Shown piece after piece: positions 16,122 to 17,670 of a stretch of DNA of 20,418 bases; the stretch's first letter is position 1; each line of letters starts with the position of its first letter. Source of the DNA: Octopus sinensis (lineage: Eukaryota). Made by a program: the position numbers and the translations under genes. The notes under the pieces are model-generated. The model did not search any database. It was given only the letters and a program-made list of their open reading frames with translations, and was not told where the DNA came from. The stretch lies in the NCBI RefSeq assembly GCF_006345805.1, contig NW_021824000.1, positions 1 to 20,418 of the forward strand, in the 5' to 3' direction.

Positions 16122-16155
16122 TATCTATACAATATGTTACATTACTCGGTAGTCA

Positions 16156-16218
16156 AGATAAAACTCTGAGTTTCAGATGCCGAAGTGGAAATCCACAACA
16201 CCATCTCTTCGGTTATCT
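16156..16218 (-). ncRNA. Type I hammerhead ribozyme (U4C variant), left arm
   Basis: Exact mirror of 16303-16365. Confidence 0.65.
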
Positions 16219-16302
16219 GGCTATTTGAAAACGTTATGAAAAATATACCGTTAAAAATCTTTTTTTTTAACGGTATATTTTTCATAACGTTTTCAAATAG
16301 CC

Positions 16303-16365
16303 AGATAACCGAAGAGATGGTGTTGTGGATTTCCACTTCGGCATCTGAAACTCAGAGTTTTATCT
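16303..16365 (+). ncRNA. Type I hammerhead ribozyme (U4C variant), right arm
   Basis: AGAUAA-CCGAAGA-[GAUG..GUGGA uu UCCAC..CAUC]u-GAAA-CUC a GAG-UU-UUAUCU; 6-bp stem I; homolog of 8338-8399. Confidence 0.68.
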
Positions 16366-16618
16366 TGACTACCGAGTAATGTAACATATTGTATAGATAA
16401 ATTTCCTCTATTTACATATATTGAGGTCTCTTTCTTTCTTTTGTTATCTTACCGTTTTATCATATATATATATATATATATATATATATATATATATATA
16501 TATATAATATCTATATATATATATATATATATATATATATATATAATATATATAAATGACAGAATGAGATAAAAAATCCATCGCTGGGAATAGTTTTCAG
16601 AAAATTTCCAAACAGAAG

Positions 16619-16666
16619 ATCTTACTGCTGTTTCCGGGGTATTTTATGTATCCCTTCATCAGAGAT
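16619..16666 (-). ncRNA. Type I minimal hammerhead ribozyme
   Basis: Minus strand AUCU-CUGAUGA-a-GGG...CCC cg-GAAA-C agca G-UA-AGAU; GUA triplet; the module (about 16555-16680) ends in (TA)n. Confidence 0.7.
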
Positions 16667-16925
16667 AGTGCGAGAAAATGTTATTATATAGAAGATGTGC
16701 GTGTGTATGCGTGTGTGTGTGTCAGTGCATATATATATATATGCATAAATTTATATGCAGATAGAACACTAAATACAAACAAAGTTTTATACATCAGAGG
16801 ATTAGTTCGGCATTTTTCATTTACTGCCGACTAAAACTGCGCTTGTGCGGTGAATTTGAAAACTTAAAATATATAATGATAAGACATGTGTTATTTGTCT
16901 CTAAATTATATGTTAATGTTATGGC

Positions 16926-17000
16926 GCGGTCACTGATGAGAATTTCGCCTAGCATATTATTTTATTTGCTAACTAAAATTCGAAATCTAGATATGGCCGT
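16926..17000 (+). ncRNA. Type I hammerhead ribozyme, canonical core
   Basis: GCGGUCA-CUGAUGA-[GAAUUU..UAGCA..UGCUA..AAAUUC]-GAAA-UCUAGA-UA-UGGCCGU. 7-bp stem I (2 GU pairs), palindromic stem III AUCUAGAU, predicted cut after 16993. Confidence 0.88.
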
Positions 17001-17366
17001 AAAAAAAATAACAGGGTAAAAGTTTTTATTTTTATTCCCTTCAAAATTGCTCTTAAATGTGGTTTTGGTCGTTTTGACTACTTCTTCTAGCGAGTAAAAC
17101 TACCTGTTAAAGATAGTTTCCCTTGTGCTTAAATGTACACTTTTTATATATATATATATATATATATAATATATATATATATATATTATTATATATATAT
17201 GTATATATATATATATATATATAGAATATATATATATATATATAATATATATATAATATAGATATTATGTATAAAATATTATTCGAGACAAAACCACTAT
17301 TTTGCAAAACACACAAGGAAAGACTTAATCAATACATAAAATTTTAATAAATAGTCAAAAAAACCG

Positions 17367-17409
17367 CCACTACAATCGTTTTCTGTCTTGATCGACAATC
17401 TTCAGGTGG
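17367..17409 (-). ncRNA. Hammerhead, left-arm copy (slightly mutated)
   Basis: Mirror of 17451-17493 but GACA-GAAAA instead of GACAA-GAAA. Confidence 0.6.
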
Positions 17410-17450
17410 ACTTCCAATAATTCATAATTTGACACTGAATTATTGGAAGT

Positions 17451-17493
17451 CCACCTGAAGATTGTCGATCAAGACAAGAAACGATTGTAGTGG
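17451..17493 (+). ncRNA. Type I minimal hammerhead ribozyme, canonical core
   Basis: CCAC-CUGAAGA-UUGUC gaucaa GACAA-GAAA-CG au UG-UA-GUGG; GUA triplet, predicted cut after 17489. Confidence 0.87.
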
Positions 17494-17670
17494 CGGTTTT
17501 TTGACCATTTATTAAAATTTTATGTATTGATTAAGTCTTTCCTTGTTTGTTTTTGCAAAATAGTGGTTTTGTCTCGAATAATATTTTATAATATTTTACT
17601 ATAAAATCGATTTAATCCTAAATCTGATTTTTCCCTGTAAATTTGGATTTATTCCCTAATATTTATTATT

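What the first reader, a model, noticed from the sequence alone, without database searches (positions are those of the whole stretch)
16122..17670. Hotspot of six hammerheads in four different modules within 1.5 kb, separated by (TA)n
Seen: palindrome 1 (two motifs), a minus-strand module (16619), a plus-strand module (16926) and palindrome 2 (two motifs). Their 3' ends converge pairwise on shared TA tracts (16462-16553 and 17145-17260). Inference: repeated independent insertion into one ancestral (TA)n array. Any read-through or intronic transcript on either strand would meet three potential self-cleavage sites and two long dsRNA hairpins.
Basis: partly seen in the sequence, partly recalled or inferred. 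Interest (0 to 1): 0.75.

Follow-up and report, generated by a model that had tools for sequence, protein, structure and literature searches.

The report
Four Penelope stumps, one spliced palindrome
This 1.5-kb stretch is a pile-up of four separate stump insertions of abundant TA-repeat-seeking jumping genes of the Penelope type whose ends carry hammerhead-ribozyme motifs that are predicted to be mostly inert here, and one stump lacks exactly the intron of its parent element, so it was likely copied twice from the spliced messenger RNA.

Summary
Largely real, mostly explained. Five of the six motifs pass a minimal type I hammerhead descriptor; the sixth has lost GAAA. Each module is the end of a different high-copy family. 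A, B and D are tips of Penelope-like elements (PLEs) with Hydra-clade protein motifs. C is a ~462-nt non-coding, retrozyme-like monomer. Hydra elements are known to target (TA)n. Such elements occur once per ~42 kb here, so about 0.5 four-element clusters are expected per genome (about 4 with the measured local clustering): rare, but no special locus is needed. The self-cleavage cassette idea is not supported: palindromic motifs are locked in hairpins and cannot pair across families. The notable part is palindrome 2. Both arms lack a ~1.83-kb GT-AG intron present in the parent element; none of 54 such arms extends beyond one upstream base; 24 of 24 two-armed copies pair a long with a short 3' end. 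This points to twin reverse transcription of spliced sense RNA, against the published antisense self-priming proposal. The scan found this spliced-palindrome pattern before on other DNA. RNA evidence was not obtained.

The parts
16015..16129 (.). (TA)n tract; target flank of the short arm of element A
16120..16257 (-). Family A short inverted arm; hammerhead core 16212 (CCGAAGA, U4C), predicted cut after 16162; ends at the family's first 3' site
16264..16461 (+). Family A long arm: 3' tip (pLTR part) of a young PLE with RT and GIY-YIG ORF; core 16309, predicted cut after 16359; about 60-nt tail beyond the short arm's end
16462..16554 (.). (TA)n tract shared by the 3' ends of A and B
16556..16697 (-). 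Family B: 5'-truncated tip of an older PLE (GIY-YIG coding remnant about 1.4 kb upstream in other copies); core 16662, predicted cut after 16623; decayed helices II and III
16698..16796 (.). Spacer: (TG)n/(TA)n then about 45 nt of non-repeat DNA; junction unique among scored matches and bridged by a short-read contig
16797..17144 (+). Family C: truncated copy of a ~462-nt non-coding, more-than-unit-length (retrozyme-like) monomer; core 16933, predicted cut after 16993
17145..17273 (.). (TA)n tract shared by the 3' ends of C and the short arm of D
17270..17424 (-). Family D short inverted arm, spliced form (6 nt of exon 1); hammerhead core 17405 with broken GAAA box
17421..17441 (+). Exon 1 remnant (21 of 23 nt) joined directly to exon 2; in parent copies a ~1.83-kb GTAAGT...TTTTAG intron lies between 17441 and 17442
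17442..17670 (+). Family D long arm, exon 2: core 17455, predicted cut after 17489; ends at the second 3' site, about 50 nt before the parent's ATG
17659..17768 (.). Degenerate (TA)n tract; right flank of D

Best explanation
The stretch is four separate insertions from four high-copy families (three tips of protein-coding Penelope-like elements with Hydra-clade motifs and one non-coding retrozyme-like monomer) that likely accumulated because their endonucleases target (TA)n, and whose hammerhead motifs are predicted to be mostly inert here. Shown: family identity, TA-flanked 3' ends, two fixed 3' ends per two-armed copy, and precise loss of the GT-AG intron in both arms of D. Inferred order: B and C (90-91% to nearest copies) came first; A and D (99%) later landed in the TA tracts at their 3' ends. 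Inferred mechanism of the palindromes: the element's protein cuts both strands of a TA tract and extends both ends, starting reverse transcription at two internal sites of the sense RNA; the two cDNAs are joined head to head. For D the template would be the spliced transcript, copied up to its first base. The intron would be removed only when the 23-nt exon is the first exon of an RNA, which would explain why long copies keep it.
For: A: 29 of 29 fetched copies ~99% identical, most followed by (TA)n; upstream ORF with YKDD RT motif and GIY-YIG (Pfam GIY-YIG E 0.008, below its cut-off); tandem pLTR-ORF-pLTR unit of 2,572 nt in L269. B: GIY-YIG remnant upstream in the same orientation in L302, L303, L313. 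D: RT and EN coding remnants between two hammerheads in L262, 39% and 30% identical to A's protein. Splicing: exon-1 pattern followed by not-A gives 159 matches, the 100 listed all G, and 20 of 20 inspected continue GTAAGT; the TTTTAG acceptor form has 1,151 matches; proximal donor to acceptor 1,805-1,871 nt in 14 arms; spliced junction 388 exact matches; exon-1 length at most 23 in 54 of 54 arms, exactly 23 in 10; 24 of 24 distinct two-armed loci pair one long with one short end, both arms spliced in 23. Spliced and unspliced arms share the same variants, so there were several sources. Density: 19 events in 800 kb; 0.5 four-clusters expected per genome (0.07-3.2); flanks of 115 copies hold 14 events against 6.9 expected. 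Papers: Hydra elements insert in (TA)n and carry hammerheads (PMC8557442); PAc cuts and extends both strands and starts at two internal sites (PMC11167929).
Against: No empty allele seen, so order and target are inferred. The window is hotter than average: 7 strict motifs in 20 kb against 15 in 800 kb; its TA density is only about twice the mean. Neighbours within 400 nt are not significantly enriched (4 against 2.0, P 0.14). No RNA evidence for the start site, splicing or cleavage. No ORF found for family C, so its mobilising enzyme is unknown. Clade assignment rests on motifs, not a tree; D's unit (about 8 kb) is longer than the under 3 kb typical of Hydra. The 54 arms were selected for holding at least 11 nt of exon 1 and include a few duplicated loci.
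Confidence: 0.87

Rival explanations
1. The cluster is a selected regulatory cassette that cleaves or attenuates a host transcript through several ribozymes and dsRNA.
For: Six motifs in 1.5 kb is far above the genome mean. Module C keeps a canonical core and its helix I forms in prediction (P about 0.64). Two long hairpins would form if transcribed.
Against: A and D are 99% identical to hundreds of dispersed copies, so their integrity reflects youth. One D core is broken and B is decayed. Hairpin penalties are 75-101 kcal/mol and cross-family helix I pairs are 0-1 bp. Metazoan PLE minimal hammerheads showed no cleavage as monomers (PMC4209133). No host gene recognised.
Confidence: 0.04
2. Palindrome 2 arose by fold-back self-priming on an antisense template, or descends from one master copy that lost its intron by DNA deletion.
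For: Antisense self-priming was proposed for head-to-head PLE palindromes (PMC3846280). Arm junctions show short microhomologies; L084 has the same junction as the window.
Against: The loss is exact at GTAAGT and TTTTAG; no arm passes one upstream base; junctions between arms vary; the two arms end at different fixed 3' sites; variants are shared with unspliced copies. An antisense RNA would not be spliced at sense signals.
Confidence: 0.07
3. The block is an assembly artefact of an unplaced 20-kb contig that joins repeats through TA tracts.
For: The window is a whole unplaced contig. Junctions through the long TA tracts could not be checked with short-read contigs.
Against: A 209-nt contig of run X3 spans 16653-16861 without a difference and one of X2 spans 16755-16862 (either may be the source sample). 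The left flank is single-copy. The same asymmetric two-arm layout and pairs across a TA tract (L019, L024, L066) occur elsewhere in the assembly, two of them on chromosome-size contigs. Twenty other small contigs are not enriched (2 motifs in 175 kb).
Confidence: 0.04

Closest known systems
Hydra clade of C-terminal EN+ Penelope-like elements (Craig et al. 2021, PMC8557442; section 11 and passages read, supplements not read)
   Same: RWK (KWK in D), DKT, CxCX5C linker, CxxC and CxH around the EN end, C-terminal GIY-YIG, canonical hammerhead, insertion into (TA)n, truncated tandem and inverted copies with a tail.
   Different: The text read reports no intron-less genomic copies and calls intron retention of unknown significance. 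D has a ~1.83-kb leader intron, an ~828-nt repeat of the exon-1 region and a unit of about 8 kb. Tails here are 60-100 nt, not 30-40.
Minimal hammerheads of metazoan PLEs (Cervera and De la Pena 2014, PMC4209133; parts 1-2 of 4 read)
   Same: Type I, short helix I, palindromic helix III suited to dimers, mostly solo copies, pairs on opposite strands 100-700 bp apart already described; intron end next to helix I as in D. virilis Penelope.
   Different: Family A carries U4C in 29 of 29 copies (a natural variant with reduced activity, PMC3088659 passage). Four families lie side by side.
PAc (Poseidon of Anolis; Frangieh et al. 2024, PMC11167929; parts 1-2 of 4 read plus term search)
   Same: Cuts AT-rich DNA on both strands, extends both, starts at two internal RNA sites that define the tail; hammerhead not needed for insertion in vitro.
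   Different: Other clade; start sites lie inside the ORF, whereas D's lie about 50 and 125 nt before the ATG. The main text has no occurrence of 'splic' or 'palindrom'.
Metazoan non-LTR retrozymes (bioRxiv 10.64898/2026.07.22.740005; part 1 of 5 and passages read)
   Same: Module C: non-coding monomer with a type I hammerhead, more-than-unit copies, proposed PLE origin.
   Different: Here a single truncated monomer; no array of two intact units seen in 33 loci.
Penelope elements of Adineta vaga (Arkhipova et al. 2013, PMC3846280; passages read)
   Same: Head-to-head palindromes at inverted junctions; host sequence carried between pLTRs.
   Different: There explained by antisense self-priming and intron retention; D's palindromes are made of spliced sequence.

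Membership tests
Minimal type I hammerhead of metazoan PLEs | Core CUGANGA...GAAA...UH with helices I and II | tested here: met
   B, C and D(+) canonical; A(+/-) with U4C
Minimal type I hammerhead of metazoan PLEs | Core intact in the sixth motif (D minus arm) | tested here: not met
   GACAGAAAACG in place of GACAAGAAACG
Minimal type I hammerhead of metazoan PLEs | Short palindromic helix III | tested here: met
   Self-pairing 8/9 (A), 8/8 (C), 8/8 (D), 6/8 (B, decayed; family form CAGCTG)
Minimal type I hammerhead of metazoan PLEs | Self-cleavage | not testable with these tools
   Needs an in vitro assay
Penelope-like element (A, B, D) | RT and C-terminal GIY-YIG linked to the hammerhead repeat | tested here: met
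   A; D; B: EN remnant only. Pfam support is weak (below cut-off; no RT family hit).
Penelope-like element (A, B, D) | 5' truncation, tandem or inverted pLTR, tail at one end | tested here: met
Hydra clade | RWK, DKT, CxCX5C, CxxC and CxH motifs | tested here: met
   A: RMRWKAF, SDKTK, CSCRNKELC, CGLC, CPH. D: RIKWKAF, SDKTR, CTCRDKSNC, CYLC, CRH. B: CNCRPGAIC only. Read by eye.
Hydra clade | Insertion into (TA)n | tested here: met
   3' flanks; A 28 of 29 begin with TA repeats
Hydra clade | Generally under 3 kb | tested here: inconclusive
   A 2,572 nt; D about 8 kb between hammerheads in L262
Hydra clade | Absence of the CCHH motif; phylogenetic placement | not tested
   No reference Hydra proteins at hand; no tree built
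Non-LTR retrozyme (module C) | Non-coding monomer with type I hammerhead in more-than-unit copies | tested here: met
   Period about 462 nt; tail sequence recurs upstream; no linked ORF in 24 + 9 loci
Non-LTR retrozyme (module C) | Two consecutive units with complete hammerheads | tested here: inconclusive
   Only L328 shows a second unit, with a decayed core; small sample
Non-LTR retrozyme (module C) | Circular RNA intermediate | not testable with these tools
   No raw RNA reads offered

The most novel reading that the evidence does not exclude
Palindrome 2 is a fossil of the PLE reaction itself: a dimeric enzyme primes both cut strands of a TA tract and copies one spliced, start-site-initiated sense RNA twice from two internal sites. 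The leader intron is spliced only when its 23-nt exon is the first exon, so short promoter-less stumps are intron-less while read-through copies keep the intron. That would explain PLE intron retention and head-to-head palindromes without an antisense template.
Probability: 0.6. Interest if true: 0.65.

Novelty: new variant of a known kind. Interest (0 to 1): 0.45.

Why it matters
The cluster itself matters little: it shows how TA-targeting PLEs stack up and that ribozyme density alone is no sign of function. The spliced palindrome bears on an open question. PLEs are described as unusual for keeping introns, with the reason unknown (PMC8557442), and antisense versus unspliced sense templates were left undecided (PMC3846280). 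A young family with hundreds of spliced and over a thousand unspliced ends makes this testable by counting, by RNA start mapping and in the existing in vitro system. It also gives a predicted transcription start site read from genomic DNA alone.

Tried and rejected
Rfam, gathering thresholds: no match. Pfam: only a sub-threshold GIY-YIG hit for A's protein, none for D's RT piece. Protein atlas not available for this sequence. Sequencing runs: no RNA holder listed; expression and splicing in RNA remain untested. Neptune-clade assignment, my first guess, was dropped for Hydra after reading the motif list. The block as a repeated unit: only the window itself matched across the B-C junction among 40 scored of 649 candidates; the search skips common words, so this is not proof. 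An allelic empty site on a chromosome: the left flank found no second copy; the right flank was not searched. Enrichment in small contigs: not seen. An ORF for family C: endonuclease hits near L063, L069 and L330 are not continuous with C or lie on the other strand. Monomer folds of the five motifs tested gave z from -2.2 to +0.6 and none of the minimum-energy folds left the core open, as expected for dimer-type motifs. Whether family A has its own short leader intron was noticed (AG just before helix I) and not tested. Literature searches for a prior report of spliced PLE palindromes listed none; the library lacks most subscription papers, and the supplements of PMC8557442, which list Hydra families and their hammerheads, were not read and may already hold these families.

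Full report
Observation. The window is a whole unplaced contig (C471) of a 2.72-Gb animal genome; earlier scan notes call it octopus, which I did not check. A descriptor search finds five minimal type I hammerheads in 16122-17670, none in 1000 shuffles. The sixth, in the left arm of palindrome 2, has lost its GAAA box. The palindromes and the TA tracts are as described. Rfam finds nothing.

Each module is the end of its own repeat family. First-look candidates in the genome: A 810, B 929, C 1,462, D 1,217, of which 40 were scored each. These are not copy numbers.

Family A (palindrome 1). All 29 fetched copies are about 99% identical, and 28 are followed by TA repeats. Upstream they share 122 to over 1,500 nt, variably truncated, and encode an RT with a C-terminal GIY-YIG. 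L269 shows tandem 518-nt pLTRs before a 2,572-nt unit. Inverted arms in six other copies stop at the same place as in the window, about 60 nt short of the long arm's end. U4C is fixed in 29 of 29; a passage of PMC3088659 says U4C lowers activity in vitro but is tolerated in a viroid.

Family B. Nearest copies are 85-90% identical. Longer copies lead through about 1.4 kb of non-coding sequence to a decayed GIY-YIG with a CxCX5C linker. Family C. Nearest copies 86-91%. The sequence that follows its 3' end recurs upstream with a period of about 462 nt, and no linked ORF was found in 33 loci: a retrozyme-like monomer.

Family D (palindrome 2). The 24 best copies are 98-99% identical and all stop within a few bases upstream of the query. 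Other copies have TTTTAG at that point, which suggested splicing. The test held. The 21-nt head followed by anything but A matches 159 times; the 100 listed all read G and 20 of 20 inspected continue GTAAGT. The acceptor form matches 1,151 times. In 12 long loci, 14 arms have donor and acceptor 1,805-1,871 nt apart, mostly with a second copy of the head about 828 nt further up. L262 has RT and EN remnants between two hammerheads, with the ATG about 50 nt after the long arm's end. The spliced junction matches 388 times. Of 54 spliced arms examined, none carries more than 23 nt of upstream parent sequence and 10 carry exactly 23. Of 24 distinct two-armed loci, all pair one long and one short end, and 23 have both arms spliced; the other is truncated before the junction. 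Variants at three sites occur in both spliced and unspliced arms. The three patterns differ in length, so their counts are not strict ratios.

Clade. A, D and (by the linker only) B carry the motifs listed for the Hydra clade, which inserts into (TA)n and has canonical hammerheads (PMC8557442). A and D proteins are 39% (RT) and 30% (EN) identical. No tree was built.

Is it a hotspot? Eighty evenly spaced 10-kb stretches hold 15 strict motifs (none in block shuffles, at most 2 in any 1.55 kb) and 19 hammerhead-element events, one per 42 kb. That gives about 65,000 per genome and 0.5 expected four-element clusters in 1.55 kb (0.07-3.2). Flanks of 115 copies hold 4 events within 400 nt (2.0 expected, P 0.14) and 10 at 400-1,500 nt (4.9 expected, P 0.03); five duplicated loci were dropped first. 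A twofold local excess would raise the expectation eightfold, to about 4 (my arithmetic). So the cluster is among the densest to be expected in this genome but needs no locus-specific cause. Pairs across one TA tract occur elsewhere (L019, L066). The window has about twice the mean TA density. The junction between B and C is unique among scored matches and is bridged by a short-read contig.

Function. On either strand the sense motif of a head-to-head palindrome lies in the second arm, so its complement is already transcribed. Predicted cost of the ribozyme fold: 101 kcal/mol for A and 75 for D in the palindrome, against 9 and 5 for the arm alone. These motifs are of the dimer type; single ones showed no cleavage in PMC4209133, and PAc's needed protein and was dispensable for insertion (PMC11167929). 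Cross-family helix I pairs are 0-1 bp, so a read-through RNA offers no partner. A transcript would form two hairpins, as at thousands of other sites.

Mechanism, shown and inferred. Shown: four families, TA-flanked ends, two fixed ends, exact intron loss, a sharp 5' limit. From the literature: both-strand cutting and extension and two internal start sites (PMC11167929). Inferred: twin priming on sense RNA, the 5' limit as the transcription start, splicing only of the first-exon intron, and the order B and C before A and D. PMC3846280 favoured an antisense template for such palindromes and left the question open; PMC2377424 reports that most Penelope transcripts are spliced. The searches listed no report of spliced genomic PLE palindromes.

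Earlier scan notes. I found the splicing before reading the notes, which describe the same pattern at other loci of this and another genome and gave me the Hydra lead. The two-ends idea was, read before my count. These notes are not independent support.

Verdict. The hotspot is a rare but expected pile-up of known element types; the ribozyme-cassette reading is not supported. The spliced two-armed insertion is a new variant of known PLE insertions with a testable bearing on their mechanism. Interest 0.45.

Noticed in passing
window 8323-8436 (+) and 4184-4228 (-): Two more minimal hammerheads pass the descriptor; the one at 8343 resembles family A but has canonical CTGAAGA and lies between TA tracts.
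   Followed up: no
L256/L257 = G000:C1:78169000-78183500: Two head-to-head unspliced D arms enclose about 8.7 kb with long, apparently intron-less frames of a HERC-like gene (RCC1 repeats, Pfam E 6e-85): likely a host mRNA carried by family D.
   Followed up: partly
window 16797-16860 (+): The head of family C holds a hairpin between a CGAAGA-like and a GAAA motif followed by a GC-rich stem; possibly a second, variant or decayed hammerhead-like fold.
   Followed up: no
window 16286-16302 (+): Family A has a pyrimidine run and AG just before helix I, as in D; a short leader intron is possible.
   Followed up: no
L257, L266, L267: The D parent repeats its exon-1 and donor region two or three times at about 828-nt spacing, giving alternative possible start sites.
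   Followed up: partly
L086/L087 = G000:C16:20686825-20688193; C12:46612409-46613322: Spliced D palindromes repeated in tandem together with their irregular TA flank (period about 476 and 501 nt): local duplication or assembly repeat.
   Followed up: no
window 13632-14203: About 570-nt element with ~27-nt terminal inverted repeats, likely a Tc1/mariner-type remnant (read; label recalled).
   Followed up: no
window 100-2100, 7352-7990, 12400-12810, 19570-19950: Several copies of short interspersed repeats, direct and inverted, SINE-like (label recalled).
   Followed up: no
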